A DNA stretch of 64,000 nt from a phage, in the sequence record PV357172.2; one strand, 5' to 3'. The position numbers and the translations under genes are program-made. This document shows positions 11,475 to 46,418 of this stretch, piece by piece (positions within the stretch are counted from its first letter, which is position 1; the number at the start of each line of letters is the position of its first letter). Under the pieces are notes generated by a model. That model was not told the DNA's origin and made no database searches. It was given only the letters and a program-made list of their open reading frames with translations.

Positions 11475-11933
11475 TTAATTTGGATAGAGTTCGGACTTAA
11501 AATTAGCCCTAACTTTTTTAGCCTCTTCTATAGTATTGCACTGCTGGTACTTACGAATAGATCCTTTCTGCATTAGCACACAATATTTATCGCCCCTCAT
11601 GTAGATATTAGGCTCGCCCAACTTATTGTCTTTACGCACATTAATATTGTGCATTTGCTTAGATCTATTGGAGTCTTCTAAATTCTCTATAAAGTTGCAA
11701 TCTTTAATCCTGTTTTTGTGGTCTATCTCTTCTGGTATGTACCCCTTATGATATAAGAATACCAGCTGATGCTCTCCCCAGTGCCTACGCTTAAACCCTA
11801 TTCTTATATACCCTTTATGTTTACCCCCGGCAAACTTACCTACTAGACTCTTCTGTCTTGTTTTCTTCCATTTAAGATGGCCTGTTTCAGGATCATACTC
11901 AAAAGCCTCTCTAACCTCTTCCTGTGTTATCAT
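11475..11933 (-). CDS. HNH homing endonuclease
   Basis: HNH motif region HKGYIPEEIDHKNRIKDCNFIENL; paralog of five other HNH genes in window. Confidence 0.7.
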   Translation of the reverse strand: MITQEEVREAFEYDPETGHLKWKKTRQKSLVGKFAGGKHKGYIRIGFKRRHWGEHQLVFLYHKGYIPEEIDHKNRIKDCNFIENLEDSNRSKQMHNINVRKDNKLGEPNIYMRGDKYCVLMQKGSIRKYQQCNTIEEAKKVRANFKSELYPN

Positions 11934-12171
11934 TTTCTTTAATCAATTCTCCTAATTCTCTATAGATTTGATCTAACTCAAAAGATATACGTAGTGATAT
12001 GCTTTGCTTTCTCTGCTTTAGCAACCATGCGCCTATGCCATTTATGGATGCTAGTCTAGCAGGAACCACCCTACATAGCTTCTCCGAAGTATCATAAACA
12101 GGAACTTTGCGTTCTTTTACTGGAAACTTCCTTGTTTCCCATTTTTTATTCTTCACTGTCATTTCTAGCAC
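11911..12171 (-). CDS. hypothetical protein (86 aa)
   Basis: ORF track; overlaps neighbours by a few codons. Confidence 0.4.
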   Translation of the reverse strand: MLEMTVKNKKWETRKFPVKERKVPVYDTSEKLCRVVPARLASINGIGAWLLKQRKQSISLRISFELDQIYRELGELIKENDNTGRG

Positions 12172-15013
12172 CTAGCTCTGACATTGCTTCCTCGTGCATC
12201 TGACGTTCTTCCTCTGTCATGAATTTGAAAGGAATTGGCATACACTCGATTTTACAATAGGTTCTGTACCAGTCTACGATATTCTCCGTGTTCATATCTT
12301 TACCAATACCCATCATACCAAGATACATTCTAGCATATTTTGGGTTAGCACTCTGACCTGTTTTAAGGAAGAAATCTTTCTTCTTACCTTTCAGAGCTTC
12401 TATGAAAGGTTTGATAGTGACATTTGAACACTTCTTAATATCTTCCCAGAACATCTCATGCATCTTATGGAAGAATGCAGCTCGATCATTCGGCTTATCT
12501 TTGATATATTGTTCAACATGCTCAACGGTTACATCTTTAATAGACTCCAGATGATAATAGCGAACAAGAAGTAGTTTAGCTTCATACGCATCCGCATGAC
12601 GTGGAGCACAATAATCAGGAGTTGAGTGCAGAATAGCTTTGATTCGCTCTTCTGTATACTCTTTACCAGCACCTTCAATAGTTCCCCAGCTTTCACTGAA
12701 AATATCAATAGTTGCACCCTGATCAAGTAAGTAATAACGTAAAGTACTAGTATAGTTCCTAGATTCCAGCTCCCTGCGACGTGCGTATAATTGCTGTGCT
12801 AACTCCAGCCAACCCTCATCAATATTATATTGTTCAGAACCTGCGGAGAATCCACTAGTGGATTTATCAATAAAATAATAGATATTCTGAGCACCACGGT
12901 CGCGCCTGATTGCTTGGAAACGCATGTTTGGCGCTTGATTACTGGTTCTAGTAATAACAAATACGTTATCAAAATAGTTGAAGTCAACTCCACTCGTTAC
13001 GGATGGACTACATAATAAGCAATCAATTTGTTGATCAATTAGCTCATTAGTTGTATAATCCAGAATACGTCGAATATCCACATCTGAGGTAGAGTTTGAA
13101 TGGATTTCCTTAACTAACGCACCCGTATTACGACGCAGTGCCATACCCTTCTCATTCAGTTCATCCGGTCCACAGTCAGATACTAGGATAGATTTTTCAC
13201 CCATCTCTAGAGATGTCTGAAGTGCAACCCAAATACTGGATTCATCCGGGAACTCATAAGCATGAGCTTTTGATAGCATTTTACGGTGATGATTATAGAA
13301 TGCAACTGGTTTATCGAACTCAATCAAAGAACCATATGCTTCAATTGTTTCAGCACTAATATCACCATCTGATAGTATAATGATTTTTGCAGTTGCAAGA
13401 ATATCACGAAGAACCTGAATACACTCACGACGTTGTTTAACAACCGGGGCGAATAATAGGTCATTCATTACTGCATCACATTCATCGATAAAGATTGCAT
13501 CAATTTGACCAATAAAACTCTTGAACTTATGCAAAGAGTGAATAGTTGTGGACATACGGTCAATAGCACCACGCTTAAAATTAAGCATATCTACAGACTT
13601 ATCATATTGTCCTGCACTAAATTTCTTGGCATTTGAAGACACCAGTGCTCTAGTATTGGTAATTGCTAAGAAATTACCTTTAATAACTCCTGAATCCAGC
13701 CAACGAACAACAGCCGTTGTTTTACCTGTGCCTAGACTTGCTTTTACAAAAGTCATATAGCCTTCTGGTGGTACAGTATTTAATTTCAAGAAGTTGTCGG
13801 TCTCTAGTGAATTAGTTTCTAGCTTTTTAAGTGGAATACCTTTTAAAATATCCGGTATATCACGTTTAGAATTATTAACAAACGCTTTCAGAGCCTGCTT
13901 ACGACCGTTGTTAAAGTAATCTTGAATATTACGACTATTATCTTTAGTTGCAATATATTCTGATAAGGCTGGACGGATTTCTTTTTCTAGCCATGCGAAG
14001 TCAACACCATCCTCTAAAGCTCTGTGATAGAGTTTAGGTATGATACGTAGGTACACTCCATCCTCAGCTTCTTCTAGTTCGCTGATAGTTTCCTCTACTT
14101 TATCAGAGGCAGCTTTTTTACCTTTAATTTGATCGAGTAAAGAGTAAAACTCCTCTTTAAACTCACCTCTAGTTGTTTCATAATCAACTAGATTATTGGG
14201 TAAGTTTACCTTAGAACCCTTAACAAATACCAGACGTGAAGCACCCTCCGCTTTAAACGGATCTACTATACCATCATTAAATAACGGATCTGCAAAATAA
14301 TGGAGCTGTACGGAAGAGTAATAAGCTAAGTCGGCAATATCAAAGCCATACTTTTGTCTACTACTTTCGTTGATAGATGTAAATAAGAATTTGATTTGAC
14401 CCTGAGTCACTTTAATATTAGATTCTAGTATTAAGTGCATTCGGATACCTGGTTTTAGCCCGGCCGAAGACGATGCATGAGCGATAAACCCTGCATCAAG
14501 AGGAAACATATCCTCACTAATACTATTTAACATTCTAATAATATGTCGAGCCATGCCAACAAGATCAAACTTGTTACAACCACCTGTATCTACAATACCA
14601 TCCACGTCCATTGCGATTATATGACTTGGGTTAGATACATTAAAGTTGCCCTTCTTACGTCGCACATTATTTTTAGGTGCAAGACATCGACCTCGTACCG
14701 CAACGATATGAGGGTCAGACGTTAAACGTCTCATAAGAGGAAGCATTTCTACTAGGGTTTGAGGATCAACTTCATCAATTACATCAAACTTGAAGGGCAT
14801 TGAAGCTGGTTTACCTTCAGGATGCTTTGAGGAAAATCTTTTAGCAAAAAGATAATCTTCTGCTTTAACTTCTCGCCAATTACCTGTGGCTAAATCGCGA
14901 TGAAATCCTGCATGACCTTGTAGGATTGAGAACACAACAATACTCCTGTGTTGGAAATGAAATAAGTTTTCTTTAGGACTATTCAGAAAGAATAGAACAA
15001 CTGTTACTGTCAA
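12146..15013 (-). CDS. large helicase-like ATPase, candidate replication initiator (start uncertain)
   Basis: 955-aa ORF (track start is TTG); Walker A SLGTGKTT and Walker B-like FIDECD; adjacent to TCAC-repeat noncoding region. Confidence 0.55.
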   Translation of the reverse strand: MTVTVVLFFLNSPKENLFHFQHRSIVVFSILQGHAGFHRDLATGNWREVKAEDYLFAKRFSSKHPEGKPASMPFKFDVIDEVDPQTLVEMLPLMRRLTSDPHIVAVRGRCLAPKNNVRRKKGNFNVSNPSHIIAMDVDGIVDTGGCNKFDLVGMARHIIRMLNSISEDMFPLDAGFIAHASSSAGLKPGIRMHLILESNIKVTQGQIKFLFTSINESSRQKYGFDIADLAYYSSVQLHYFADPLFNDGIVDPFKAEGASRLVFVKGSKVNLPNNLVDYETTRGEFKEEFYSLLDQIKGKKAASDKVEETISELEEAEDGVYLRIIPKLYHRALEDGVDFAWLEKEIRPALSEYIATKDNSRNIQDYFNNGRKQALKAFVNNSKRDIPDILKGIPLKKLETNSLETDNFLKLNTVPPEGYMTFVKASLGTGKTTAVVRWLDSGVIKGNFLAITNTRALVSSNAKKFSAGQYDKSVDMLNFKRGAIDRMSTTIHSLHKFKSFIGQIDAIFIDECDAVMNDLLFAPVVKQRRECIQVLRDILATAKIIILSDGDISAETIEAYGSLIEFDKPVAFYNHHRKMLSKAHAYEFPDESSIWVALQTSLEMGEKSILVSDCGPDELNEKGMALRRNTGALVKEIHSNSTSDVDIRRILDYTTNELIDQQIDCLLCSPSVTSGVDFNYFDNVFVITRTSNQAPNMRFQAIRRDRGAQNIYYFIDKSTSGFSAGSEQYNIDEGWLELAQQLYARRRELESRNYTSTLRYYLLDQGATIDIFSESWGTIEGAGKEYTEERIKAILHSTPDYCAPRHADAYEAKLLLVRYYHLESIKDVTVEHVEQYIKDKPNDRAAFFHKMHEMFWEDIKKCSNVTIKPFIEALKGKKKDFFLKTGQSANPKYARMYLGMMGIGKDMNTENIVDWYRTYCKIECMPIPFKFMTEEERQMHEEAMSELGARNDSEE

Positions 15014-15029
15014 TTTCTCAACAAATTAA

Positions 15030-15470: not shown

Positions 15471-15923
15471 TTACTGGATTGATTCCCTACCGTATAATTG
15501 ACCTCTAAACATCTTGGCCATAGAACATGCAACCTCATAGTTATCATATGTTCCTTTAACTATACGTTTACGGTTAATAGTAAATACTACTTGCCAGTTC
15601 TTACTACCAGAAGGGTAAACATGCATTCCTTTCTTATACTTGATATTTCTTAGATTACCGGATACTGTCTGCTCTCTAAGATTTTCAATACGATCATCAC
15701 CTTTTACAGTATTCACATGATCTACTAAATCAGGTAAGTATCCGTGATGCATTAAGAAGATAGCTCTGTGTCGGAGCATAGTTCTACTCCCTAGAGAAAT
15801 ACGGTAATAACCATTTCCCGTTGAAACACAACATTCCTTGCCTGCATTTCTTCCTGTAGTTCTAAATAATTTTCCATCTTCATATCGGAAATTATCTAAA
15901 AGTTCCTGTTGTGTGAGCGACAT
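15471..15923 (-). CDS. HNH homing endonuclease
   Basis: HNH motif HHGYLPDLVDHVNTVKGDDRIENL; start set at ATG 15923 preceded by GGAGG. Confidence 0.7.
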   Translation of the reverse strand: MSLTQQELLDNFRYEDGKLFRTTGRNAGKECCVSTGNGYYRISLGSRTMLRHRAIFLMHHGYLPDLVDHVNTVKGDDRIENLREQTVSGNLRNIKYKKGMHVYPSGSKNWQVVFTINRKRIVKGTYDNYEVACSMAKMFRGQLYGRESIQ

Positions 15924-16062
15924 CTTTACCTCCAATACATATATTATTACATAATCCACCCAATTTGTCAATGACAATTTATTCATACTGTCAATTAACT
16001 GGAAAGATTATATAATAATCCGAGCCAAAATGACTCGGTAGTCAGAGTTCAGCTAATAAAAA

Positions 16063-19150: not shown

Positions 19151-20977
19151 TTACTTAAGATTTAAGTGTTTTACTCTACCAAGTACTTCTTTTTGTTTCC
19201 CAGAATTGAAAGGCCTACTGCCCGGGGATCCCAGGTACCCGCAAACCCTACGTGTAACCTCTATTTCTTCAGATCCACAACTCGGACATACAAACCCACG
19301 TTCAGAGGCAACAGATTCACCCATATACCCACAGTTGAAGCACTCATCAATTGGTATATTAACACCAATATAATGACTACATTCTAGTCCCTTATCTACT
19401 ACGTATTCAAGAGCTTTATGGAACTTTTTCATTTGTGGTAGTTCCACAAACGATATATTACCACCATTAGCTATTTTGGTGAAATGAGCTTCATACTCAA
19501 ATTTAGTATCCGGAGCTACCTTCTCCCTTACGTCCAAATGATGACTATTAGTGAGATAGCCTTTATCTGTTAGCCAAGAATACTCAGGGAACCTACGTTC
19601 CAGTAGTTTATTAAAGCGATTACATAGAGACTCACTAGGAGTAGCATACAAGCTAAACCCAAGATTAGTCTCATTAGCTTTAACTTCGCAACGATTTTTT
19701 AGGTGAGTAAGAACTTCCTCTGTAAATTCAATACAGTCCCTATGAGTCTGCGGTAAACTAAACATTATTTGGCACATCTCATAGACCCCAATATACCCAA
19801 GAGATACAGAAGATCTACCCTCAAAAATTGGCCATACATACTCTTCCCTATCTAAACGCACACCAAAACCACCGTGCATATAAAGAATAGGGGCTTGTTT
19901 AGCCTTCACTTTCTTAAGTCTATCCAAGAAAAAATCATGAGCTTCAAAAGCCTCATCCACATATTTGTCCAGAATATCCCAGAAATCTTCAAAAACCCCA
20001 TCTGCCTCAGCAGCAACCATAGGTAGATTAATAGACACTACACCTAAATTATTGCGCCCTGCAATTTCTCCGGAGGGGATAGCAGATAAAAAGCTACGAC
20101 AACCCATAGGGGCTTTAAAATCACCAGTAACAGCTATAACTTTCTCATAGCTTAAATAGTCTGGGTACATACGGGTAGCAGAACACTCAAGTGCTAGCTG
20201 TTTTATATCATAGTTAGGATCGCCTGGATTTTTATTTAACCCTTCTTTAACTGAGAATACTAGTTTAGGGAAGATAGGGGTTGACTCGGCAGCACCTAAA
20301 CCTTTAATACGATTTTGGAGGATGGCTTTCTGAATCATCCTTTCCTCCCACTCCTGACCTAATCCAAAGCCAAGCGTAACAAAAGGGGTCTGCCCGTTAG
20401 AGTTAAATAATGAATTAGTTTCATACTCTAGAGCTTGGAATGCATCATAACACTCTTTTTCAGTAAGCTCAGTAGCATACACAGCAGCTTTTCTTTCATC
20501 CTTGAGCCAACGTAGCCCACGACCCAGATGTTTATTGTAAGACTTTCTGACATACGGGGCTAGAACCTCGTCGATACGATCAATAGAGGTACCACCATAC
20601 TGAGCACCAGATACTTGGGCAATAATCTGAGCAGTGATTGCACATGCAGTAGTTATGGATTTAGGAGTTTCAATATTTGCATTACCGATTTTAGTACCAT
20701 TCTTCAGCATGCCCCCCAGATCTACTAAACAACAGTTGGTGTACCCTTGTGCTCTGTAGTCCATGTCATGAATGTGTATTTTACCTAGATTATGCGCGTC
20801 TAACAGGTGTTTAGGTAATTCTTGCGATACTAAATACTTGTTAATTTCCCCAGCTAATAAGTCCCTTTGAGTATGGAACATCTCACTAGGCTTATTAGCA
20901 TTATTATGTTGTAAGTCTTTATCCGCAGTTAGAGTGAGCAGACCTTTGCAATTTTCAATTAATTCATTCTCTGTCAT
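19151..20977 (-). CDS. nrdD: anaerobic ribonucleoside-triphosphate reductase (class III)
   Basis: 608-aa ORF; C-terminal glycyl radical motif RVCGYLGS; Cys cluster CFNCGY...CPSCG. Confidence 0.85.
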   Translation of the reverse strand: MTENELIENCKGLLTLTADKDLQHNNANKPSEMFHTQRDLLAGEINKYLVSQELPKHLLDAHNLGKIHIHDMDYRAQGYTNCCLVDLGGMLKNGTKIGNANIETPKSITTACAITAQIIAQVSGAQYGGTSIDRIDEVLAPYVRKSYNKHLGRGLRWLKDERKAAVYATELTEKECYDAFQALEYETNSLFNSNGQTPFVTLGFGLGQEWEERMIQKAILQNRIKGLGAAESTPIFPKLVFSVKEGLNKNPGDPNYDIKQLALECSATRMYPDYLSYEKVIAVTGDFKAPMGCRSFLSAIPSGEIAGRNNLGVVSINLPMVAAEADGVFEDFWDILDKYVDEAFEAHDFFLDRLKKVKAKQAPILYMHGGFGVRLDREEYVWPIFEGRSSVSLGYIGVYEMCQIMFSLPQTHRDCIEFTEEVLTHLKNRCEVKANETNLGFSLYATPSESLCNRFNKLLERRFPEYSWLTDKGYLTNSHHLDVREKVAPDTKFEYEAHFTKIANGGNISFVELPQMKKFHKALEYVVDKGLECSHYIGVNIPIDECFNCGYMGESVASERGFVCPSCGSEEIEVTRRVCGYLGSPGSRPFNSGKQKEVLGRVKHLNLK

Positions 20978-21635
20978 TGATTATTTCCTCGATAAACCTT
21001 GCTACTATTTCTGGCTCAATACTAAAAAATTCTGTAGCACCATCAAAATCTTTGTACTGACAATTATATTCCTTAAACTGTAAATGGGCCTCTCTTTCAA
21101 TACGCATAGCTTTTGATCTATCTGAAAAGCTATATTCCTTAAATATTTTTAAATCATGTATGTTAGAAGAAGTTTTAATATCTCTGAGTCTATCTTTAGT
21201 TCTGCTAGACACCCCTATTTTGGTTCCCACACTACTTATTAAAATATATACGTTAGTAGGATAATTATCCTTCTCTAATAAACATATAGGACAACCAGAA
21301 TTATGATTTCTAACACTATCAAGTGTAGACTCCCATCTATGATTATTCTCACAGCTGAACATAATTTTACTCTTAGAATTGATGTATTTACCTTCCATCT
21401 TTATTCCACGAGCAGCTAAGGATTCATTTACCTCTTTAAGATCTAAAGTACGACTAGCACAATAAGGGCAACCTCTCCCACCTTTTACATTATCTACTCT
21501 AGCCTCCCAGATATGTCCATTAGAGCACTTAAATACAGCATTGGATTTAGCTGATATATACGTGCTTAGCATAATTATTCCTCTGGGAGCAAGTGTTAAG
21601 TTCACATCTTCTGTAGTTATTTTCTTTCTTACCAT
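20964..21635 (-). CDS. T5orf172/GIY-YIG-like domain protein with tandem zinc-ribbon repeats
   Basis: Two N-terminal repeats (FKCSNGHIWEARVDNVKGGRGCPYC / FSCENNHRWESTLDSVRNHNSGCPIC); C-terminal VYILISSVGTKIGVS...R...E GIY-YIG-like core. Confidence 0.5.
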   Translation of the reverse strand: MVRKKITTEDVNLTLAPRGIIMLSTYISAKSNAVFKCSNGHIWEARVDNVKGGRGCPYCASRTLDLKEVNESLAARGIKMEGKYINSKSKIMFSCENNHRWESTLDSVRNHNSGCPICLLEKDNYPTNVYILISSVGTKIGVSSRTKDRLRDIKTSSNIHDLKIFKEYSFSDRSKAMRIEREAHLQFKEYNCQYKDFDGATEFFSIEPEIVARFIEEIINDRE

Positions 21636-25492: not shown

Positions 25493-25990
25493 ATGAAATT
25501 AACACAGAGTAGATTAAAAGAGCTAATCTCCTATGACCCTGAAACTGGCGAATTTACCTGGCTCCCAAGAAAAACTTTAGCAAAGCATTTATGGAATGCT
25601 AAAGCAGGAACCTACGATAAATTAGGGTATCTTCGTATAAAAGTTGAAGGAGTTCAATATTTAGCTCATCGCCTAGCCTTCTTGTATATGACTGGAGAAA
25701 TACCGGAAGGAAAAATCGACCATAAAGATACTAATCCGTCTAATTGTGCCTGGGATAATCTCCGTGAAGCCACGAGTTCTCAAAATTCTATGAACTCGTG
25801 TGCAAGATCGGATAACCAGCTTGGAATGAAAAATATTCGTGTAAAAGGCACTTCATTTCAGGTTAGGATAGGCAAAGACGGCAAATCTTATACAAAAACT
25901 TTTAAAACCCTAGAAGAAGCTATAGAATGGAGAGACACCAAACTACTAGAACTTCATGGGGACTTTGCAAACAACGGAGAAGCTAAATGA
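25493..25990 (+). CDS. HNH homing endonuclease (between nrdA and nrdB)
   Basis: HNH motif GEIPEGKIDHKDTNPSNCAWDNL; own promoter-like element upstream. Confidence 0.7.
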   Translation: MKLTQSRLKELISYDPETGEFTWLPRKTLAKHLWNAKAGTYDKLGYLRIKVEGVQYLAHRLAFLYMTGEIPEGKIDHKDTNPSNCAWDNLREATSSQNSMNSCARSDNQLGMKNIRVKGTSFQVRIGKDGKSYTKTFKTLEEAIEWRDTKLLELHGDFANNGEAK

Positions 25991-28516: not shown

Positions 28517-28595
28517 TTCAAATAAAATATTACTTGCTTGATGTCTAAATTTATAATATAATATTTCCTATATGTATATTATAGGGGATTTACTT

Positions 28596-29150
28596 ATGAT
28601 TATAAAAGAAGGATGGACAAAAGAGTCCGCACGAGCTAGATTTATATACAACCCTGATACAGGGGAGATTTTTAACAGAGTAAATAGCGGACGTGCTAGA
28701 AAAGGAGAATTAGCCGGGTATATTGATAAATCTACGGGGTATGTTAGACTAGTATTATCTGGTAAAAGGATTAAAGGACATCAGCTAGCCTTCTTATATA
28801 TGGAAGGCTATATACCTGATACCATAGACCATATTAATAGAATAAAATCAGATAATAAATGGACTAATCTAAGGGAATCATCGGCTCAAGAAAATGCTAG
28901 AAATATTAGGGCAAGAAGTAAATCGGGCTATTTAGGTGTTGGTTGGTATAAGCCAACCCAAAACTGGTGTGTTTATACTAAGGATAAAGATGGAGTCCAA
29001 GTTAACGGAGGCTACTTTGCATACAAAGAACTAGAGTTAGCAGTTCAAAAGGCTAATGAACTTCGCTTACAGTTACATGGAGAAAACGCTGTTATAGAAG
29101 CTTTTGATTCCACAAAACCACTTCCCACATTAGAGGATCTTAATAAATGA
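28596..29150 (+). CDS. HNH homing endonuclease (between thyA and RNase H)
   Basis: HNH motif EGYIPDTIDHINRIKSDNKWTNL; start at ATG 28596 after AGGGGA. Confidence 0.7.
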   Translation: MIIKEGWTKESARARFIYNPDTGEIFNRVNSGRARKGELAGYIDKSTGYVRLVLSGKRIKGHQLAFLYMEGYIPDTIDHINRIKSDNKWTNLRESSAQENARNIRARSKSGYLGVGWYKPTQNWCVYTKDKDGVQVNGGYFAYKELELAVQKANELRLQLHGENAVIEAFDSTKPLPTLEDLNK

Positions 29151-33252: not shown

Positions 33253-34074
33253 ATGGGTAAATTACAAAAACAAATACTACCACATATAGATTATATTCGA
33301 GAAATTATAGAGTATAATCCTTATACTGGTAAATTATTTTATAAGCCTAATAAATACAAGAATAAAACTTGGCACACCCTATATGCTGGGAGAGAAATAT
33401 GTAGTAAGAACTCTGATGGGTATATCAGAGTTAGTTTGCTCTTAGATAATAAACCCACAATTATTTATGGACACCGAATAGCGTGGTTGCTCCATTATGG
33501 TGAAGAGCCTCCTTATATGATCGACCATATAAATACCATACCGTGGGATAACAGAATTGTTAATCTAAGAGAGACAAATTTTAAGTTAAATAGGATTAAT
33601 ACTAATAAAACCGTAGGTGTAGAACTCCTCCCCGAGGGTTTTGTGTATAGCATTACATTAGGTGGAAAGTTTTTCGTATCTCCTGGCTTCACCACTTTCG
33701 AACAAGCTAAAGGGGAAAGAGAAAAACTAGTAAATGGTTTATGTAATGCAGAAATTGGGAAGCAGACCAATATTCTAATAGACGATGTTAGAGATCTACC
33801 TGAAATGTCCATTATTTGTCGTACAGTTATAGGTGCGCTGGAACTATCAGATATGTTTAGTTTTACTGGTTCCTACCTATTTATGGACTCAGATCTAGGA
33901 GACCCAGAAGTACAAGGAAAAGACTTATTAGATTATATACTCTTTTTAGGTCAAAGACCTTTGAAAGTAGTTCTAGTAACATCCAACCCTGTTGACGCAG
34001 AGTACATGAGAGGTACTCTTACGTCTTATGGTTATCGAGAAAATCCCAATAGGTTAGAATATGACCTATTTTAA
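33253..34074 (+). CDS. HNH endonuclease with C-terminal extension
   Basis: HNH motif YGHRIAWLLHYGEEPPYMIDHINTIPWDNRIVNL in N-terminal half. Confidence 0.65.
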   Translation: MGKLQKQILPHIDYIREIIEYNPYTGKLFYKPNKYKNKTWHTLYAGREICSKNSDGYIRVSLLLDNKPTIIYGHRIAWLLHYGEEPPYMIDHINTIPWDNRIVNLRETNFKLNRINTNKTVGVELLPEGFVYSITLGGKFFVSPGFTTFEQAKGEREKLVNGLCNAEIGKQTNILIDDVRDLPEMSIICRTVIGALELSDMFSFTGSYLFMDSDLGDPEVQGKDLLDYILFLGQRPLKVVLVTSNPVDAEYMRGTLTSYGYRENPNRLEYDLF

Positions 34075-41254: not shown

Positions 41255-41257
41255 ATT

Positions 41258-41839
41258 ATGCACGGAATATCCTTACCAATTCCAGGGTTTGAGGAGTACT
41301 TAGTAAGTTTGGATGGGTTAGTATTTAGTATCAAATCAAACAAAATACTAACCCCAATAACCAGTAATTACGGATACTTATCTATACGTCTCCATAAAAA
41401 TGGTCAACAGAGAAATACCGGTGTACATAGGATTTTAGCATGTGCATTTAAGAAATTACCAAGTCTAGACTCTGAACTAGAAGTTGACCATATTAACACA
41501 GACATTACTTATTGGGGTCTTAATAACTTACAAGTGCTCACAAAAGAGCAGCATCTAGAAAAGACTTTAAAAGATAAAGGATTTAGTAAACTAAACCATG
41601 ATAATTGTTGTAAGGATTGTGGTAAAGCTATTTCTTTAAAAGCTGAAAAATGTCAGGAGTGCTCTTCACATAAACCAAAAGATATCTCTATAACTAAAGA
41701 AATAATCGAGGTTACAGTAAGAGAGCTAGGCTGGTCAGGTGCAGGGAGAAAGTTAAGTTATTCAGATAATGGGTTGCGTAAAAGATACACTTCTTTAGGA
41801 GGCAATCCTAAAGAACTTAAAAAGTTAAAGGTACTATAG
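41258..41839 (+). CDS. HNH endonuclease with zinc finger and C-terminal HTH
   Basis: HNH region ELEVDHINTDITYWGLNNLQVLTKEQH; CKDCG...CQEC zinc finger; paralog of 43929-44513. Confidence 0.65.
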   Translation: MHGISLPIPGFEEYLVSLDGLVFSIKSNKILTPITSNYGYLSIRLHKNGQQRNTGVHRILACAFKKLPSLDSELEVDHINTDITYWGLNNLQVLTKEQHLEKTLKDKGFSKLNHDNCCKDCGKAISLKAEKCQECSSHKPKDISITKEIIEVTVRELGWSGAGRKLSYSDNGLRKRYTSLGGNPKELKKLKVL

Positions 41840-41901: not shown

Positions 41902-41910
41902 CCAAATTAT

Positions 41911-41984: not shown

Positions 41985-41987
41985 CCA

Positions 41988-42660: not shown

Positions 42661-42669
42661 CCAAACAAT

Positions 42670-42744
42670 TGCGGGTTAGATCTCTGGTAGAGATCGCTAG
42701 TCTCATAAGCTAGAAAGAGGTAGGTTCGATTCCTGCACCCGCTT
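42670..42744 (+). tRNA. tRNA with CAT anticodon (Met/fMet or Ile2)
   Basis: Anticodon loop CTCATAA, T-arm GTAGG-TTCGATT-CCTGC, CCA; position 1-72 appears unpaired (U-U) in my fold. Confidence 0.6.
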
Positions 42745-42767
42745 CCATTTTAATAGAGGATTTCGAA

Positions 42768-42931
42768 ATGAAAGTATTTCGATTAGTAGTAAGTGACAAA
42801 CGGTTAGGTAAGAATACATCAAAATCCTTACTTGCTCATTATGGTAAAAATTGGGATGAAGTAATGGCAGAGTTTAATACTAATCACCCTTACTTGAAAG
42901 TTCACTCTATTAAGGAAGTTTATGCTTATTA
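42768..42931 (+). CDS. small protein (about 54 aa)
   Basis: Below track threshold; ATG at 42768 after AGAGGA; overlaps start of next gene. Confidence 0.35.
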
Positions 42932-43395
42932 ACAGGGTGCTTCAAGCTCTAGATCTTCCAGAGCTCTTTACTATTACCGACCCCTTAATACATCGGTATA
43001 TGGAAAAGTATAATGAAATCTCTGGTAAAAAAGGGAAACTAAAATCCTCAGAATTTAAGTTCTGTTATAGAATGGCAGCATTAAACCTCTTAAAGTACAA
43101 GAGGGAGCATAAAATCCCTATAACAGAAGGATTTGTCTATGTAATAGGTAGTCCAGCATGGCCTGGACTATATAAGATAGGTATGACAGTAGATGTGAAT
43201 GAAAGACTGTCTAGTTATCAAACATATTCGCCTTATCGTGATTACAAGTTATACCATTTCAGATTCTCCTCGGACAAGAGAAGAACTGAAAAAGCATTAC
43301 ATAACCTTCTGAAGGACTACAAAGTATCAGGAGAATGGTTTGAAGTACCTCTGTTAGACGCCTTCAAACTATTAGTAGAAAATTTGGATTGCTAA
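42922..43395 (+). CDS. T5orf172/GIY-YIG-like domain protein
   Basis: Motif GFVYVIGSPAWPGLYKIGMT...R...E; AAGGAAG RBS. Confidence 0.5.
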   Translation: MLINRVLQALDLPELFTITDPLIHRYMEKYNEISGKKGKLKSSEFKFCYRMAALNLLKYKREHKIPITEGFVYVIGSPAWPGLYKIGMTVDVNERLSSYQTYSPYRDYKLYHFRFSSDKRRTEKALHNLLKDYKVSGEWFEVPLLDAFKLLVENLDC

Positions 43396-43460
43396 CTCAA
43401 CTGGATAAGAGTACCGGACCTTTAATCCGTCAGTTCTGGGTTCGAATCCCAGGCAATCCA
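43386..43460 (+). tRNA. tRNA-Lys (anticodon TTT)
   Basis: Perfect acceptor GGATTGC/GCAATCC, anticodon loop CCTTTAA, T-arm CTGGG-TTCGAAT-CCCAG, CCA; 5' end overlaps last codons of upstream CDS. Confidence 0.65.
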
Positions 43461-43748
43461 CCAATTTCAAGAAAAACTCAGTTGCTTGATGCTTAATTTC
43501 TTGTTATAATATTTATATAAATTGATGAGGAGAAATCCTCATCATAGTTCACTAAGGTATTAGCTCGACCTAGGACTGGCTGCCAAAAAGCACGATCCCT
43601 ACGATTTGGGAGAAGTTCTAGATTAGTCCACTAGATTCAGCGGCAACTGAATAGTGTATCGGTTTTGCGAGATGACGCGGTTCCTTCCGCTCGAAGCGAA
43701 GGTGCTGTAGTTACGCCGAGCTAATAGCCTTAGTAAACTAAGGAATTT

Positions 43749-43819
43749 GGGGATATAGTTTAATGGTAGAACATCTGCTTTGCACGCAGAAGACGAGGGT
43801 TCAACTCCCTCTTTCTCCA
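43749..43819 (+). tRNA. tRNA-Ala (anticodon TGC)
   Basis: Acceptor GGGGATA/TTTCTCC (one mismatch), anticodon arm TCTGC-TTTGCAC-GCAGA, T-arm GAGGG-TTCAACT-CCCTC, CCA. Confidence 0.65.
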
Positions 43820-43827
43820 CCAAATTT

Positions 43828-43909
43828 GGGGCTATGCTGGAACTGGTAGACAATACGGCCTTAGATTCCGTAGCTTAAATGCGTGGGAGTTCGAGTCTCC
43901 CTAGCCCCA
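43828..43909 (+). tRNA. tRNA-Leu (anticodon TAG), long variable arm
   Basis: Perfect acceptor GGGGCTA/TAGCCCC, anticodon loop CTTAGAT, T-arm GGGAG-TTCGAGT-CTCCC, CCA. Confidence 0.65.
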
Positions 43910-43928
43910 CCAACTTATAGGGTAATGT

Positions 43929-44513
43929 ATGCAGTTTGTACCAATAAAAGATGCACCAGGGTATTTAGTAAATGAAACAGGGGATGTGTTATCTACATTT
44001 ACTAATAAAATCTTATCAAGATATATAGTTGATGGGTACCCTGCTGTAAAATTACAGATAAATGGTAAGCAAACTTCGGTACTTATACACCGAATTATTT
44101 CTCATGTATTTGGGGACTTATATAATCTATTTGACCCTGAATTAGAAGTAGATCACAAGGATAGAGATAGGCTGAATCTATCTAAAGATAATCTTCAAGT
44201 TTTATCAAAAATAGAACATCAGAAGAAAACTAATAAAGATAATGGATGGTCTGATAGTAGAGTACCTTGCCCCTTATGTGGAAATCTAATGCTTCAGAGA
44301 TCAGTAACATGTACAAATTGTAAGCCAAAACCTACAGGAAAGTTAATAAAACCAGAATTGTCCTTAGAAGACATAACTGAAAAGGTTTTATTAATGGGGT
44401 GGGTTAAGGCAGCTAAAGATCTAGAAGTATCAGAGTCCACTTTACGTAGACGATATACTAAACTAACCGGATTAAGCCCGAAAGTATTAACAGAACAACG
44501 GAAAAGCAAATAG
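43929..44513 (+). CDS. HNH endonuclease with zinc finger and C-terminal HTH
   Basis: HNH region ELEVDHKDRDRLNLSKDNLQVL; CPLCG...CTNC zinc finger; paralog of 41258-41839. Confidence 0.65.
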   Translation: MQFVPIKDAPGYLVNETGDVLSTFTNKILSRYIVDGYPAVKLQINGKQTSVLIHRIISHVFGDLYNLFDPELEVDHKDRDRLNLSKDNLQVLSKIEHQKKTNKDNGWSDSRVPCPLCGNLMLQRSVTCTNCKPKPTGKLIKPELSLEDITEKVLLMGWVKAAKDLEVSESTLRRRYTKLTGLSPKVLTEQRKSK

Positions 44514-44590
44514 ACTGGTGACTAAACCCGATTGGAAATCGGTTGAGTGGTAGCAATACCGCCTTATGGGTTCAACTCCCATCTTTTCCG
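44500..44590 (+). tRNA. tRNA-Ser (anticodon GGA), long variable arm
   Basis: Perfect acceptor GGAAAAG/CTTTTCC, anticodon loop TTGGAAA, T-arm ATGGG-TTCAACT-CCCAT, CCA; 5' end lies inside last codons of HNH gene. Confidence 0.6.
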
Positions 44591-44605
44591 CCAAACAATT
44601 TATAT

Positions 44606-44697
44606 GGTAGGTCAATCCAATGGCTGGCGCTGGACTCCGACTTGAAATCGGTTGATCGTAGTGATACGGTGTAAGGGTTCGATCCCCTTACCTACCT
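44606..44697 (+). tRNA. tRNA-Ser (anticodon TGA), long variable arm
   Basis: Perfect acceptor GGTAGGT/ACCTACC, anticodon loop CTTGAAA, T-arm AAGGG-TTCGATC-CCCTT, CCA. Confidence 0.65.
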
Positions 44698-44955
44698 CCA
44701 AATCTTGAAGTATGCCGGAATCGGTAGACGGGGCTGCCTAAAAGGTTTATAGGGAACATCCACTCCCTGCAACATACCTCATAAAGCGGCTGAGATAAAT
44801 GGTCTATCTCGTGAAGGTTCAAGTCCTTCTGCTTCTTGATACATCTATGGCTCAAAGTGTAACGGTGCTATTTGATGCTCTTGGTAAGACTTCCCCGACA
44901 TGCGTTCGGGAGTAAGCTGCTAAGACTAGAGTAGAAGAGTTTCTGAGAGCCGCCA

Positions 44956-45070
44956 CAATTGAAAATTCGTACTCGTCTTGAGCTGCGTGCAATAGGAGAT
45001 AACTTGATTAGTATTCTAGAACATGCTAATTGAGGATGGTTTCGCTAACCCTGCGAGTTTTCAATTGTGG
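44956..45070. repeat. 14-bp perfect inverted repeat GCCACAATTGAAAA / TTTTCAATTGTGGC separated by about 88 nt
   Basis: Read directly; distal arm overlaps the 5' acceptor of tRNA-His. Confidence 0.5.
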
Positions 45071-45140
45071 CTATATCATAATTGGTTAATGATCCTGATT
45101 GTGAATCAGGCCTATGTGGATTCGAATTCCACTAGCCACC
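45067..45140 (+). tRNA. tRNA-His (anticodon GTG)
   Basis: Perfect acceptor GTGGCTA/TAGCCAC, anticodon arm CCTGA-TTGTGAA-TCAGG, T-arm GTGGA-TTCGAAT-TCCAC, C discriminator, CCA. Confidence 0.65.
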
Positions 45141-45168
45141 CCAAATTAACTTAAATAGGAAATAAAAT

Positions 45169-45369
45169 ATGGCTGATTTCTGCAAGCAATGCTCCCTTGA
45201 TATGTGGGGCAGAGATACTGGTGACTTATCTGGTCTGATTACAGAAGCCGAAGTCAAAGAAGGTTATAGTGCAGTTGTGATTTGTGAAGGCTGCGGTGTT
45301 ATCCGTGTAGACCACACCGGTAAGCGTTTGGAAGAACCAGTTCCAATTGCGCAAGTTCCTGTAGAATAA
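45169..45369 (+). CDS. hypothetical protein (66 aa)
   Basis: ORF track; Cys pairs CKQC...CEGC suggest a zinc ribbon. Confidence 0.45.
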   Translation: MADFCKQCSLDMWGRDTGDLSGLITEAEVKEGYSAVVICEGCGVIRVDHTGKRLEEPVPIAQVPVE

Positions 45370-45377
45370 AAAATTAT

Positions 45378-45450
45378 TGGAGTGTAGCTCAACTGGCAGA
45401 GCGACGGTTTCTGACACCGTAGGTTTCTAGTTCGATCCTAGACATTCCAG
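45378..45450 (+). tRNA. tRNA-Gln (anticodon CTG)
   Basis: Acceptor TGGAGTG/CATTCCA, D-stem GCTC/GAGC, anticodon arm ACGGT-TTCTGAC-ACCGT, T-arm TCTAG-TTCGATC-CTAGA, CCA. Confidence 0.65.
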
Positions 45451-45459
45451 CCAAACAAT

Positions 45460-45534
45460 TGGGGATTAGCTTAGCTTGGCCTAAAGCTTCGGCCTTTGAA
45501 GTCGAGATCATTGGTTCAAATCCAATATCCCCTG
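45460..45534 (+). tRNA. tRNA-Gln (anticodon TTG)
   Basis: Anticodon arm TCGGC-CTTTGAA-GTCGA, T-arm ATTGG-TTCAAAT-CCAAT, CCA; first acceptor pair mismatched in my fold. Confidence 0.6.
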
Positions 45535-45545
45535 CCAAACAATAA

Positions 45546-45618
45546 GCGATTAAGCACACGGGTTGTGCCGCAGGCCTTCCAAGCCCCGCTGAGTAGGGTT
45601 CGATTCCCTCTAGCCGCT
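45546..45618 (+). tRNA. tRNA, anticodon uncertain (possibly TCC, Gly)
   Basis: T-arm with TTCGATT loop, acceptor with one mismatch, CCA; anticodon stem weak in my fold. Confidence 0.4.
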
Positions 45619-45638
45619 CCAACTTTAAGGAAACATTT

Positions 45639-45860
45639 ATGCACGTTTTTGAGTTTCGTGATAAAAGTAACAATAAACGAGTTATTGTTATTGGAGAAAC
45701 ATACCTAGCATACGAACAAACTGATGGCTCTGTTATCTTGAATGATGAGAAAGCAAATTTTAGCTTTTATCCAGAAGAACCTTATGAAGAGTTTCGTACT
45801 AAGTTTCTTTTACCAGACTGGCTAGCAGTAGCCGAGCAACGAGAATCCGAAGATGGCTGA
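45639..45860 (+). CDS. hypothetical protein (73 aa)
   Basis: ORF track; AAGGAAACATTT RBS. Confidence 0.45.
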   Translation: MHVFEFRDKSNNKRVIVIGETYLAYEQTDGSVILNDEKANFSFYPEEPYEEFRTKFLLPDWLAVAEQRESEDG

Positions 45861-46014
45861 TAACCTAAAATTAAGGGTTGACAAACAAAAGAAATACGTT
45901 GAGGTTGAATTAGGCGAAGAACGCTTAAAGCTAACTTTCGAGTTTCTTCAGCAGTTGGCTATGACAGTCATGACTGATAAGTCTCCTGTTATTGAAAAAG
46001 AAATCCCGTTGAAA
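45853..46014 (+). CDS. small protein (about 53 aa)
   Basis: Below track threshold; ATG overlaps upstream stop (ATGGCTGA). Confidence 0.35.
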
Positions 46015-46025
46015 TAGGAAGCAAC

Positions 46026-46418
46026 ATGGAGTTTACTTGTTTAAATTGCGGAATCACAAAACCTAAAAGTAGGGGTTCCGCAGGTAAGTATTGTGGTGCT
46101 GCTTGTCAGCAGGAGTACCAGACAAAGCAAAAAGTATTAAAGTGGCTGGCAGGTGAAGAACCTGGTTATACTGGTAAAGCTGCACAATTAAAACCTTTTG
46201 TTAGGAAGTGGCTGTGGGATACTCGTGGTACTGCTTGTGAAGTATGTGGTTGGGATGGGAAACATCCAATTGACGGAGCAGTTTTAACTGAGGTAGATCA
46301 TATAGATGGAGATGCAACTAACTGTTCTCCAGAAAATCTAAAGATTCTCTGCCCTAACTGTCACTCTATGACACCTACGCATAGGGCCAGAAATAGAGTT
46401 TCAACAAGACAACGATAG
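46026..46418 (+). CDS. small HNH endonuclease (130 aa)
   Basis: HNH/zinc motifs TEVDHIDGDATNCSPENLKILCPNCH. Confidence 0.6.
   Translation: MEFTCLNCGITKPKSRGSAGKYCGAACQQEYQTKQKVLKWLAGEEPGYTGKAAQLKPFVRKWLWDTRGTACEVCGWDGKHPIDGAVLTEVDHIDGDATNCSPENLKILCPNCHSMTPTHRARNRVSTRQR

What the first reader, a model, noticed from the sequence alone, without database searches (positions are those of the whole stretch)
11475..46418. Nine HNH endonuclease genes of three types scattered through replication, nucleotide-metabolism and tRNA regions
There are six members of one family (11475, 15471, 25493, 28596, 33253 and the frameshifted 58933), two zinc-finger/HTH-bearing paralogs (41258, 43929) and one small HNH (46026). 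Several sit at classic homing positions: between nrdA and nrdB, between thyA and RNase H, and inside the tRNA cluster. This density suggests active or recent intergenomic competition, or site-specific nicking roles.
Basis: partly seen in the sequence, partly recalled or inferred. Interest (0 to 1): 0.5.

Follow-up and report, generated by a model that had tools for sequence, protein, structure and literature searches.

The report
Mobile endonuclease genes in T5-like phage
This stretch of a T5-like phage genome carries nine HNH and two GIY-YIG-type homing endonuclease genes, which are selfish mobile genes present in some related phages and absent from others; this is a well-documented feature of phage T5 and its relatives, so the finding is real but ordinary.

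Summary
All nine ORFs are HNH endonuclease genes of three types: six HNH_3/phrog_99, two NUMOD4-HNH/phrog_59 and one PF01844 HNH. The 58933 copy is frameshifted by a one-base loss in an A-run.

The window is the early region of a T5-like phage (Demerecviridae). Among about 30 related genomes every site is polymorphic. The same allele sits at the same site in a minority of relatives, most relatives have an empty site, and some sites hold unrelated alleles. Inserts are about ORF-sized. The endonuclease gene is often far more conserved than its flanks, and pN/pS is low. These are free-standing homing endonuclease genes.

This is already known. T5 has nine HNH (heg) genes, including one between nrdA and nrdB. 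The 43929 gene is the ortholog of the named site-specific endonuclease F-TflI. Published work calls these genes the main source of differences between T5-like genomes.

The nicking idea is not supported for virion nicks. T5's nicking genes map to the late region, and T5-type nick motifs are conserved here regardless of HNH content.

Side observations are an in-frame HNH-cREC fusion and tight linkage of the tRNA-cluster endonuclease genes to particular alleles of the downstream tRNA.

The parts
11475..11933 (-). Type-1 HNH homing endonuclease gene (152 aa), between the D2 homolog and a T5.110-like small ORF next to the origin-binding protein gene
   Evidence: HNH_3 E 2.3e-10; phrog_99 E 1.5e-42. 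Same allele in 3 of 32 relatives and an empty site (gap about 95 nt against 549) in 26. The gene is 98.9% identical where the flanks are 80-87%. 16 synonymous against 1 non-synonymous difference.
15471..15986 (-). Type-1 HNH homing endonuclease gene (171 aa), between the T5.107 homolog and the origin-binding protein gene
   Evidence: HNH_3 E 3.3e-11; phrog_99 E 8.8e-42. Present (96% aa) in 4 of 29 relatives; the rest have gaps about 240-510 nt shorter.
20964..21635 (-).
   Evidence: Pfam. Same allele in 1 relative, 45-47% alleles in 8, an HNH instead in 1, and empty in 21. Carriage is linked to a divergent nrdD 5' allele: 7/9 against 1/22, Fisher p 1e-4.
25493..25990 (+). Type-1 HNH homing endonuclease gene (165 aa) between nrdA and nrdB; same site as T5 hegH (P-TflVIII) but a different allele
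   Evidence: HNH_3 E 1.2e-16; phrog_99 E 1.9e-61. 98-99% allele in 3 relatives, a 79% allele in 1, 35-44% alleles in about 10, and empty (gap 130 against 599) in 16. T5 hegH at this site; AKFV33 paper.
28572..29150 (+). Type-1 HNH homing endonuclease gene (192 aa, or 184 aa from the ATG at 28596) between thyA and RNase H
   Evidence: HNH_3 E 4.1e-12; phrog_99 E 2.4e-52. Absent from all IMG/VR relatives examined. In GenBank phages it is 97.9% (S.Inf 5-2) and 93.8% (EH7), with a 75% allele overlapping 'ribonuclease H' in GEC_vB_N3/N5/N7, vB_Sen_I1 and ESCO30.
33253..34074 (+). Type-1 HNH module (aa 1 to about 168) fused in frame to a complete cREC_REC domain (aa about 172-273), which is a separate conserved gene (T5.084) in most relatives
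   Evidence: HNH_3 E 3.9e-12 plus cREC_REC E 8.8e-13. The alignment to T5.084 and the absence of a start codon at the junction are. 24 of 28 relatives have only the cREC gene, which is 52% identical. The full-length fusion occurs in 38 phage records. The two genes are separate ORFs in phage bastian. pS is 0.04 in the HNH half and 0.30 in the cREC half, with pN/pS 0.03 in cREC.
41258..41839 (+). Type-2 (NUMOD4 + HNH + CxxC...CxxC) homing endonuclease gene (193 aa); its stop codon lies inside tRNA-Asp (41830-41904)
   Evidence: NUMOD4 E 4.1e-5; phrog_59 E 6.4e-22; sequence. 98% aa in CitS1 (where it is unannotated) and one other relative. The gene's 3' end and this tRNA-Asp allele occur together in 58 of 75 phage records.
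42922..43395 (+).
   Evidence: MUG113 E 2.8e-19 and T5orf172 E 3e-14. Present in 4 of 23 relatives; the empty site has a gap of 189 against 638. The gene and this tRNA-Lys allele occur together in 86 of 87 phage records, including BF23.
43929..44513 (+). Type-2 HNH homing endonuclease gene (194 aa), ortholog of T5 hegC (F-TflI); its 3' end overlaps tRNA-Ser(GGA) (44500-44593)
   Evidence: HNH_3 E 7e-6; phrog_59 E 6.1e-23. 95.9% aa to T5 at the same tRNA-Leu/tRNA-Ser site. Matches I-HmuI (1U3E) at E 2.9e-5 over residues 5-97. Occurs together with this tRNA-Ser allele in 27 of 46 records.
46026..46418 (+). Type-3 small HNH (PF01844) endonuclease gene (130 aa); its last base abuts or overlaps the first base of tRNA-Thr (46418-46492)
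   Evidence: PF01844 E 6.1e-5; phrog_1271 E 1.7e-17. Present in 1 of 19 relatives; the empty site has a gap of 167-197 against 557, and the inserted segment is 46022-46411. Only 43% identical to T5 hegA/F-TflIV over the core; 70% to jumbo phage EC.P1.
58933..59465 (+). Type-1 HNH gene disrupted by a -1 frameshift (A6 to A5 at about 59261-59265). The ORF 58933-59346 keeps the catalytic core, and the C-terminal third continues in another frame to 59465
   Evidence: HNH_3 E 3.6e-11. Out-of-frame fragment at E 1.6e-4. Alignment with six relatives that have an intact 177-aa ORF. Site occupied in about 13 of 28 relatives by alleles of 60-99% identity. Linked to a particular allele of the upstream DUF7179 gene, p 0.0015.

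Best explanation
The nine HNH genes and the two T5orf172/GIY-YIG-type genes are free-standing homing endonuclease genes. These are selfish mobile genes lodged in short intergenic gaps between conserved early genes and tRNA genes of a T5-like phage.

Inferred mechanism: when this phage co-infects a cell with a relative whose corresponding site is empty, each enzyme nicks or cuts the relative's DNA at a specific sequence near the empty site. Recombinational repair from the endonuclease-carrying genome then copies the gene, and a variable length of flanking DNA, into the recipient. The carrier's own site is protected by the insertion or by sequence differences in the adjacent gene.

Shown here: domain identity, intact catalytic motifs, presence/absence polymorphism at fixed sites, allele replacement at the same site, endonuclease genes more conserved than their flanks, purifying selection, and one-sided linkage to divergent alleles of a neighbouring gene or tRNA.

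Inferred and not shown: cleavage activity and specificity, and that the enzymes themselves, as opposed to ordinary recombination, drive the spread.

In the tRNA cluster each of the four endonuclease ORFs ends in or at the next tRNA. By analogy with what has been proposed for T4 SegB and the T5 F-Tfl genes, tRNA processing would then cut the mRNA near its stop codon and keep expression low.
For: Domain identity and intact motifs:
- Pfam and PHROG assignments for all eleven genes.
- The His, Asn and Leu of the His-Me finger are invariant across the nine (alignment).
- Types 1 and 2 match the homing endonuclease I-HmuI, PDB 1U3E.

Free-standing:
- Rfam finds no group I introns, only tRNAs.

Site polymorphism in about 30 T5-like genomes:
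- The same allele at the same site occurs in 0-8 genomes per site; most sites are empty in the majority.
- Inserts are about ORF-sized: 95 to 549, 130 to 599, 189 to 638 and 167 to 557 nt.
- Unrelated alleles share sites. nrdA/nrdB holds alleles of 99, 79, 42-44 and 35-37% identity. The nrdD site holds GIY alleles of 95 and 45-47%, or an HNH.

Horizontal transfer:
- The endonuclease gene is 97-99% identical where flanks are 78-87% (sites A, G, J).
- Paralogs within the window are only 28-47% identical, so they did not arise by recent duplication.

Selection:
- pN/pS is 0-0.26, for example 16 synonymous against 1 non-synonymous and 27 against 8.

Linkage to a neighbouring allele:
- nrdD 5' end, Fisher p 1e-4; tRNA-Lys, p 9e-4; DUF7179, p 0.0015.
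- Co-occurrence in GenBank phages of 86/87, 58/75, 27/46 and about 8/14 for the four endonuclease-tRNA pairs, with homology in gene-less records resuming within a few bases of the tRNA 5' end.

Precedent:
- 43929 is 96% identical to T5 hegC, annotated 'H-N-H endonuclease TflI'. [quoted passage not shown] 2004, as cited.
- T5 'encodes nine such enzymes'.
Against: - No cleavage, nicking or co-infection data exist for any of these particular alleles, except by orthology for 43929.
- Patchy distribution and endonuclease genes more conserved than their flanks could also arise from ordinary recombination between co-infecting phages without the enzymes being the driver.
- The nrdA/nrdB, 15471 and 33253 sites show no linkage between carriage and flank allele.
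- Carrier counts per site are small (1-8), so the association tests are weak and relatedness among genomes was not controlled.
- The linked tRNA alleles also occur without the endonuclease gene in 1-41% of records.
- One copy (58933) is frameshifted and may be dead.
- The DNA-binding modules of type 1 have no significant Pfam match; AP2 scores only E 0.41.
Confidence: 0.85

Rival explanations
1. One or more of these HNH enzymes is the nickase that makes the characteristic site-specific single-strand interruptions of T5-type virion DNA. On this view they serve the phage and are not selfish elements.
For: Types 1 and 2 are related to I-HmuI, a strand-specific nicking homing endonuclease. T5-like virions carry nicks in one strand. 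The window contains the T5 major-nick consensus at 37153 and 52209, at positions equivalent to the annotated T5 nicks.
Against: The genes responsible for T5 nicking (sciA, sciB) were mapped to the late region (PMC3517423), while this window is the early region. HNH content is not conserved: 0-12 per genome over this region, and Stitch has none. Yet the nick-motif core GAGCGC is kept at both positions in 26-30 relatives. T5 and this phage share only one orthologous HNH here (hegC), but share both nick positions. No HNH gene lies within 3 kb of either motif.
Confidence: 0.04
2. The endonuclease genes, especially those in the tRNA cluster, are partly co-opted. By cutting and triggering recombination they drive exchange or amplification of alternative tRNA alleles that help the phage evade tRNA-targeting host defences, so they are kept because they benefit the phage as well as themselves.
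For: All four tRNA-cluster endonuclease genes are joined to the downstream tRNA and co-occur with a specific divergent allele of it. Same-anticodon tRNAs in T5-like phages fall into forms 60-75% identical to each other. T5-family tRNAs counter PARIS and retron/Septu defences (abstracts). T6 SegB, a homing endonuclease in a tRNA cluster, amplifies an anti-defence tRNA locus (PMC13096335).
Against: No functional data exist for these tRNA alleles. Control tRNAs with no adjacent endonuclease gene are just as bimodal, so mosaicism may not depend on these genes. Linkage is what plain co-conversion by a selfish element predicts. The tRNA alleles also exist without the endonuclease gene.
Confidence: 0.2
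3. The genes are decaying, non-functional relics of past invasions, with no present activity.
For: The 58933 copy carries a frameshift that removes its C-terminal third. One relative keeps only a 33-aa remnant at the nrdD site. The homing cycle predicts degeneration after fixation.
Against: Eight of nine HNH ORFs and both GIY-type ORFs are full length, with catalytic residues intact and low pN/pS. Alleles 97-100% identical occur in diverged backbones, which implies recent spread. The 58933 lesion is a single base in a homopolymer and could be a sequencing error.
Confidence: 0.05

Closest known systems
Phage T5 heg genes (hegA-hegJ; F-TflI, F-TflII, F-TflIV, F-TflV, F-TflVI, P-TflVIII-X)
   Same: Same phage family and same early region. 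T5 has eight HNH genes in the region equivalent to this window, including hegH between nrdA and nrdB and hegC/hegD/hegA within the tRNA cluster. The 43929 gene is the 96% ortholog of hegC (F-TflI) at the same tRNA-Leu/tRNA-Ser junction, with the same overlap onto tRNA-Ser.
   Different: Only one gene is orthologous. The nrdA/nrdB site holds a different allele (about 42% identical). T5's hegI lies on the other side of the T5.110 small ORF from the window's 11475 gene. The hegA, hegD, hegE, hegF and hegJ sites are empty here. The 15471, 28572, 33253, 41258, 46026 and 58933 sites are empty in T5. 46026 is only 43% identical to hegA/F-TflIV over the catalytic core.
I-HmuI / I-BasI (Bacillus phage SPO1 / Bastille nicking HNH homing endonucleases, PDB 1U3E)
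   Same: Types 1 and 2 belong to the same HNH_3 / His-Me finger group. Type 2 aligns collinearly with I-HmuI residues 5-97, covering the N-terminal strands and the HNH core. I-BasI-annotated genes appear among distant tblastn hits.
   Different: [quoted passage not shown] The genes here are free-standing, with no intron. Sequence similarity is marginal (E 3e-5 and 9e-4). Whether the enzymes here nick or make double-strand cuts is unknown.
Phage T4 free-standing homing endonucleases: MobE (HNH, between nrdA and nrdB) and SegB (GIY-YIG, in the tRNA cluster)
   Same: Same lifestyle and strikingly similar insertion niches: an HNH gene between nrdA and nrdB, and a GIY-YIG-type gene among tRNA genes whose ORF end meets a tRNA. 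SegB is required for preferential inheritance of the T4 tRNA region in co-infection, and its expression is thought to be limited by tRNA processing near its stop codon (PMC2330249; PMC2790892 abstract).
   Different: Unrelated phage family. No detectable orthology was tested or claimed. The T5orf172/MUG113 domain genes here are a different branch of the GIY-YIG superfamily from the Seg proteins. That MobE lies between nrdA and nrdB is from my own knowledge, supported indirectly by the Aeh1 reference cited.

Membership tests
Free-standing phage homing endonuclease genes (HNH class), as in T5 heg / T4 mob | HNH / His-Me finger catalytic domain with conserved catalytic residues | tested here: met
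   Pfam HNH_3 or HNH hits for all nine. Invariant His, His, Asn and Leu columns in the alignment. The 58933 lineage has HH in place of DH before the catalytic His, in intact relatives too.
Free-standing phage homing endonuclease genes (HNH class), as in T5 heg / T4 mob | Located between host genes and not inside an intron or intein | tested here: met
   Rfam gathering-threshold scan finds only tRNAs and no group I or II introns. Flanking ORFs are intact, and the inserted segments are about ORF-sized.
Free-standing phage homing endonuclease genes (HNH class), as in T5 heg / T4 mob | Presence/absence polymorphism at a fixed site among otherwise syntenic relatives | tested here: met
   All sites are polymorphic among about 30 T5-like genomes and GenBank phages.
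Free-standing phage homing endonuclease genes (HNH class), as in T5 heg / T4 mob | Evidence of horizontal spread independent of the backbone | tested here: met
   Endonuclease gene identity of 97-99% with flanks at 78-87% at sites 11475, 41258 and 46026. Allele and flank are decoupled at nrdA/nrdB.
Free-standing phage homing endonuclease genes (HNH class), as in T5 heg / T4 mob | Site-specific cleavage of the empty allele and super-Mendelian inheritance in co-infection | not testable with these tools
   Requires biochemistry and phage crosses. The only indirect support is 96% orthology of 43929 to the named endonuclease F-TflI.
Free-standing phage homing endonuclease genes (HNH class), as in T5 heg / T4 mob | Modular DNA-binding domain attached to the nuclease (NUMOD, AP2, HTH, zinc ribbon) | tested here: inconclusive
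   NUMOD4 is significant only for 41258 (E 4e-5). Type-2 zinc ribbon and HTH get only sub-threshold hits (E 0.03), though CxxC...CxxC is visible. The type-1 C-terminal region is conserved among paralogs, but AP2 scores E 0.41.
F-TflI (T5 hegC) orthologs | High sequence identity and the same genomic site (tRNA-Leu(UAG) / tRNA-Ser(GGA) junction, 3' overlap with tRNA-Ser) | tested here: met
   The 43929 gene is 95.9% aa and 93.6-93.9% nt identical to T5 hegC, with the same flanking tRNAs and the same 14-nt overlap.
T5-type virion nickase (sciA/sciB function) | Encoded in the late region of the genome | tested here: not met
   sciA and sciB map to the late region (PMC3517423). All eleven genes here lie in the early replication, nucleotide-metabolism and tRNA region.
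T5-type virion nickase (sciA/sciB function) | Conserved in all phages that keep the nick sites | tested here: not met
   The nick-motif core is kept at both positions in 26-30 relatives. No HNH allele of this window occurs in more than 8 of about 30 relatives, and some relatives have none in this region.
T5-type virion nickase (sciA/sciB function) | Nicks at the R/GCGCRGG consensus | not testable with these tools
   Requires enzyme assays.
GIY-YIG superfamily (T5orf172/MUG113) homing endonucleases | T5orf172/MUG113 nuclease domain plus presence/absence polymorphism at a fixed site | tested here: met
   20964-21635 and 42922-43395: Pfam E 1.8e-10 to 2.8e-19. Polymorphic occupancy. Annotated as 'putative GIY-YIG nuclease family protein' or 'putative homing endonuclease' in JLBYU43, IrmaTschudi and TrudiRoth. 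Nuclease activity was not tested.

The most novel reading that the evidence does not exclude
In the tRNA cluster, the mobile unit is not the endonuclease gene alone but an endonuclease-plus-tRNA cassette. Each of the four genes is joined by its stop codon to its own divergent allele of the downstream tRNA: Asp, Lys(UUU), Ser(GGA) and Thr. The common allele of that tRNA would be the cleavage target, so homing swaps tRNA alleles between T5-like phages. Because T5-family tRNAs are now known to neutralise tRNA-cleaving defences (PARIS, retron/Septu), these selfish genes could be a main engine that generates and spreads defence-evading tRNA variants. A second, smaller possibility is that the conserved in-frame HNH-cREC fusion (33253-34074) is a functional chimera in which a core phage protein now depends on a homing endonuclease gene for its expression.
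Probability: 0.3. Interest if true: 0.55.

Novelty: already known. Interest (0 to 1): 0.2.

Why it matters
As given, the finding restates a documented property of T5-like phages: many free-standing HNH homing endonuclease genes, variable between isolates, at sites such as nrdA/nrdB and the tRNA cluster. Its value is mostly practical. These genes explain most of the gene-content differences between T5-like genomes, they mark recombination hot spots, and many are left unannotated in database records. The more useful leads are the side observations. The tRNA-cluster endonuclease genes are tightly linked to particular tRNA alleles, which connects selfish-gene dynamics to the current interest in phage tRNAs as counter-defence factors. 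The HNH-cREC fusion shows how a homing endonuclease gene can become welded to a conserved phage gene.

Tried and rejected
1. AP2 DNA-binding domain in the type-1 C-termini. I expected this from memory of HNH-AP2 endonucleases, but a permissive Pfam scan gave only E 0.41 on one reconstructed protein, so I dropped the label.

2. 46026 as the ortholog of T5 F-TflIV (hegA). Rejected: 43% identity over the 53-residue catalytic core only, and a different site.

3. 11475 as occupying the T5 hegI site. It is in the same neighbourhood, but T5's hegI lies between the origin-binding gene and T5.110, whereas the window's gene lies between the T5.110-like ORF and D2. The T5 protein is only 26% identical.

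4. 'The tRNA allele is found only with the endonuclease gene.' This looked absolute in the IMG/VR sample (0 of 25, 21, 2 and 25), but the larger GenBank sample shows exceptions: 17/75, 1/87, 19/46 and about 6/14. I downgraded it to strong linkage.

5. Over-representation of the nick consensus. Two matches against 1.8 expected by chance is not significant as a count; only the positional match to T5 is informative.

6. The NadR-like gene as an anchor for fetching tRNA-region loci returned only 4 loci, so I replaced it with the 47204-47572 anchor.

7. MAFFT junction mapping at the 33253, 58933, 15471 and 20964 sites was blurred by replaced or divergent sequence. Exact insertion points are given only for the clean sites.

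8. Two literature queries failed on term length and were rerun.

9. I found no paper in the library that identifies the T5 nickase gene at sequence level.

Full report
**What the window is.** Megablast of 20000-44000 against GenBank phages hits about 650 records of Salmonella, Escherichia, Klebsiella and Citrobacter T5-like phages (Demerecviridae). The best is Citrobacter phage CitS1, genus Epseptimavirus, at 93.6% identity. No record covers more than 78% of the query. Gene order matches the T5 early region:
- DNA polymerase, primase, helicase, split ligase, D2, origin-binding protein;
- Sir2-like genes, nrdD, phoH, nrdA, nrdB, frd, thyA, RNase H;
- a cluster of 19 tRNA genes, then dnk and lysis genes.

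**Checking the observation.**
- Identity is 28-47% among the six type-1 proteins and 37% between the two type-2 proteins.
- The alignment shows the His-Me finger residues invariant in all nine.
- A profile built from the nine finds no tenth copy in six-frame translation. It does pick up an out-of-frame fragment at 59241-59465.
- Aligning 58900-59500 with six close relatives shows a single missing A in an A6 run at about 59261-59265. The relatives encode an intact 177-aa protein. The frameshift is real in this sequence, though a homopolymer sequencing error cannot be excluded.
- The stated positions (nrdA/nrdB, thyA/RNase H, tRNA cluster) are correct.
They carry T5orf172/MUG113 domains (GIY-YIG superfamily) and lie at 20964-21635(-) and 42922-43395(+).
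- Rfam finds no introns, so all eleven genes are free-standing.

**Are the sites variable?** I fetched four sets of loci from about 30 complete T5-like genomes in IMG/VR, plus CitS1 and T5. For each site I located both flanks, measured the gap and classified the intervening DNA.
- Every site is polymorphic. For example, the 11475 site is empty (gap about 95 nt against 549) in 26 genomes, holds the same allele in 3 and an unrelated HNH in 3.
- The nrdA/nrdB site is empty in 16, holds the window's allele in 3, a 79% allele in 1, and alleles only 35-44% identical in about 10.
- The nrdD-proximal site is empty in 21 and holds three different GIY-type alleles, or an HNH, in 10.
- The window-specific segments are about ORF-sized, for example 46022-46411 against the ORF 46026-46418.
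- The 28572 allele was absent from this set. In GenBank it occurs at 94-98% identity in two records, and as a 75% allele at the same junction in a handful.

**Evidence for horizontal spread and function.**
- Where a relative shares the window's allele, the endonuclease gene is often much more similar than the surrounding DNA: 98.9% against 80-87% at 11475, 97.4% against 78-81% at 41258, and 99.0% against 86-94% at 46026.
- At nrdA/nrdB the endonuclease allele and the flanking allele are uncoupled. The genomes whose nrdA 3' ends are closest to the window's carry different HNH alleles.
- Orthologous pairs show mostly synonymous change, with pN/pS 0-0.26, so the genes are maintained as coding sequences.
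- Carriage is linked on one side to a divergent allele of the neighbouring gene at three sites: the nrdD 5' end (7/9 against 1/22, Fisher p 1e-4), tRNA-Lys (p 9e-4) and the DUF7179 gene upstream of 58933 (p 0.0015). No such linkage is seen at nrdA/nrdB, 15471 or 33253.
- One-sided linkage is what co-conversion from a target in the adjacent gene would give. Relatedness among genomes was not controlled and carrier numbers are small.

**Comparison with what is known.**
- The T5 record AY543070 annotates hegF, hegE, hegD (F-TflII), hegC (F-TflI), hegA (F-TflIV), hegH (between nrdA and nrdB), hegI and hegJ in the region equivalent to this window.
- The window's 43929 gene is 96% identical to hegC at the same tRNA-Leu/tRNA-Ser junction.
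- The literature already states that T5 encodes nine HNH enzymes, and that the T5-like phage Stitch has none.
- It also states that the nrdA/nrdB endonuclease gene differs between T5-like phages, and that homing endonuclease genes are the largest contributor to differences between T5-like genomes.
- Counting over the equivalent region in 27 relatives gives a median of 2 HNH genes, a range of 0-12, and 8 for T5. The window's 9 + 2 is therefore high but not exceptional.
- Types 1 and 2 are distant relatives of the nicking homing endonuclease I-HmuI.

**The nicking alternative.** T5-like virions carry site-specific nicks in one strand. The published major-nick consensus R/GCGCRGG occurs twice in the window, at 37153 and 52209, both on the + strand. 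That count is no more than chance. However, the positions correspond to the annotated T5 nicks beside the SPFH-like gene and inside dnk, and both lie in the same 13-mer, GGAGAGCGCAGGG. The core is retained in 26-30 relatives whatever their HNH content. The T5 nicking genes sciA and sciB map to the late region. None of the HNH genes here is therefore a good candidate for the virion nickase. Nicking as the chemistry of homing remains possible.

**Side observations.**

1. The 33253-34074 ORF is an in-frame fusion of a type-1 HNH module with a complete cREC_REC domain.
   - That domain is a separate, conserved 105-aa gene (T5.084) in most relatives. There is no start codon at the junction.
   - Phage bastian has the two as adjacent separate ORFs.
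   - The fusion occurs full-length in 38 GenBank records.
   - Between carriers the HNH half is nearly identical (pS 0.04). The cREC half is much more diverged but strongly constrained (pS 0.30, pN/pS 0.03).

2. All four endonuclease ORFs in the tRNA cluster end inside or at the first base of the next tRNA. This matches the arrangement discussed for T4 SegB and the T5 F-Tfl genes as a way of limiting expression through tRNA processing.
   - Each gene co-occurs with a particular allele of that tRNA. In GenBank phages the figures are 86/87 for GIY 42922 + tRNA-Lys(UUU), 58/75 for HNH 41258 + tRNA-Asp, 27/46 for HNH 43929 + tRNA-Ser(GGA), and about 8/14 for HNH 46026 + tRNA-Thr.
   - In records without the gene, homology resumes within a few bases of the tRNA 5' end. 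Some tRNA-Asp genes are chimeras that share only the 3' half.
   - Same-anticodon tRNAs across T5-like phages fall into forms only 60-75% identical, including tRNAs with no adjacent endonuclease gene. tRNA-His, by contrast, is 100% identical in 27 of 28 genomes.
   - T5-family tRNAs counter PARIS and retron/Septu defences, and T6 SegB amplifies an anti-defence tRNA locus. The possibility that these genes drive exchange of defence-relevant tRNA alleles is therefore worth testing, but nothing here demonstrates it.

**Verdict.** The phenomenon is already described for T5 and its relatives, and every allele has a near-identical counterpart (93-100% at the nucleotide level) in sequenced phage genomes. 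Interest is low for the finding as stated and moderate for the tRNA-cassette and fusion leads.

Noticed in passing
One abuts nrdD and carries a DUF4379 zinc finger and a CapR domain. The other sits in the tRNA cluster and overlaps tRNA-Lys(UUU). Both are presence/absence polymorphic among relatives.
   Followed up: yes
window 33253-34074 (+): In-frame fusion of an HNH endonuclease module to a complete cREC_REC (cyclic-phosphate processing receiver) domain, which is a separate conserved gene (T5.084) in most T5-like phages. There is no start codon at the junction. The fusion is found full-length in 38 GenBank phage records. The cREC half is under strong purifying selection and is much older than the HNH half (pS 0.30 against 0.04).
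   Followed up: partly
window 37153-37160 and 52209-52216 (+): The published T5 major-nick consensus RGCGCRGG occurs twice, both times inside the same 13-mer GGAGAGCGCAGGG. The positions are equivalent to the annotated T5 nicks beside the SPFH-like gene and inside dnk. The core is conserved in 26-30 relatives regardless of HNH content. The shared 13-mer may be a better description of the nick recognition site.
   Followed up: partly
window 41830-46492 (tRNA-Asp, Lys-UUU, Ser-GGA, Thr) and related loci: Each tRNA-cluster endonuclease ORF ends in or at the downstream tRNA and co-occurs with a specific divergent allele of it (86/87, 58/75, 27/46 and about 8/14 GenBank records). Some phages (JLBYU43, smaug, phagemcphageface) have chimeric tRNA-Asp genes that match only the 3' half of the window's allele, which places recombination breakpoints inside the tRNA.
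   Followed up: partly
window 39199-47020 compared with L094-L123: Same-anticodon tRNAs of T5-like phages fall into two or more forms only 60-75% identical (Pro, Gln, Ile, Ala, Leu-UAG and others), whereas tRNA-His is 100% identical in 27 of 28 genomes. The window also lacks the Tyr, Glu, Trp, Phe, Cys, Val, Asn and some other tRNAs present in CitS1 or T5.
   Followed up: partly
window 35479-35550 (+): Rfam tRNA model hit (35.5 bits, gathering score 29) that ARAGORN did not call. It lies just upstream of tRNA-Arg, where CitS1 annotates a tRNA-Sec(tca) and T5 annotates the stable 'RNAX'.
   Followed up: no
L001 (CitS1 PQ818762) about 32886-33462; several other GenBank records: Many deposited T5-like genomes leave these endonuclease genes unannotated or call them 'hypothetical protein'. 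CitS1 has no CDS where it carries a 98%-identical copy of the 41258 HNH.
   Followed up: no
window 46026-46418 (+): The small PF01844 HNH is rare in T5-like phages (9 records at 99% or more) but has 70% and 53% identical relatives in the jumbo phages EC.P1 (356 kb) and Salicola phage SCTP-2 (440 kb). This suggests transfer between unrelated phage groups.
   Followed up: no
window 6946-7728 and 7930-8904 (-): By size and position these ORFs correspond to T5 ligB and ligA, the NAD-dependent DNA ligase split into two genes with about 200 nt between them. This is a 'gene in pieces' arrangement of the kind homing endonuclease insertions can create. I did not run Pfam on these two ORFs individually.
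   Followed up: no
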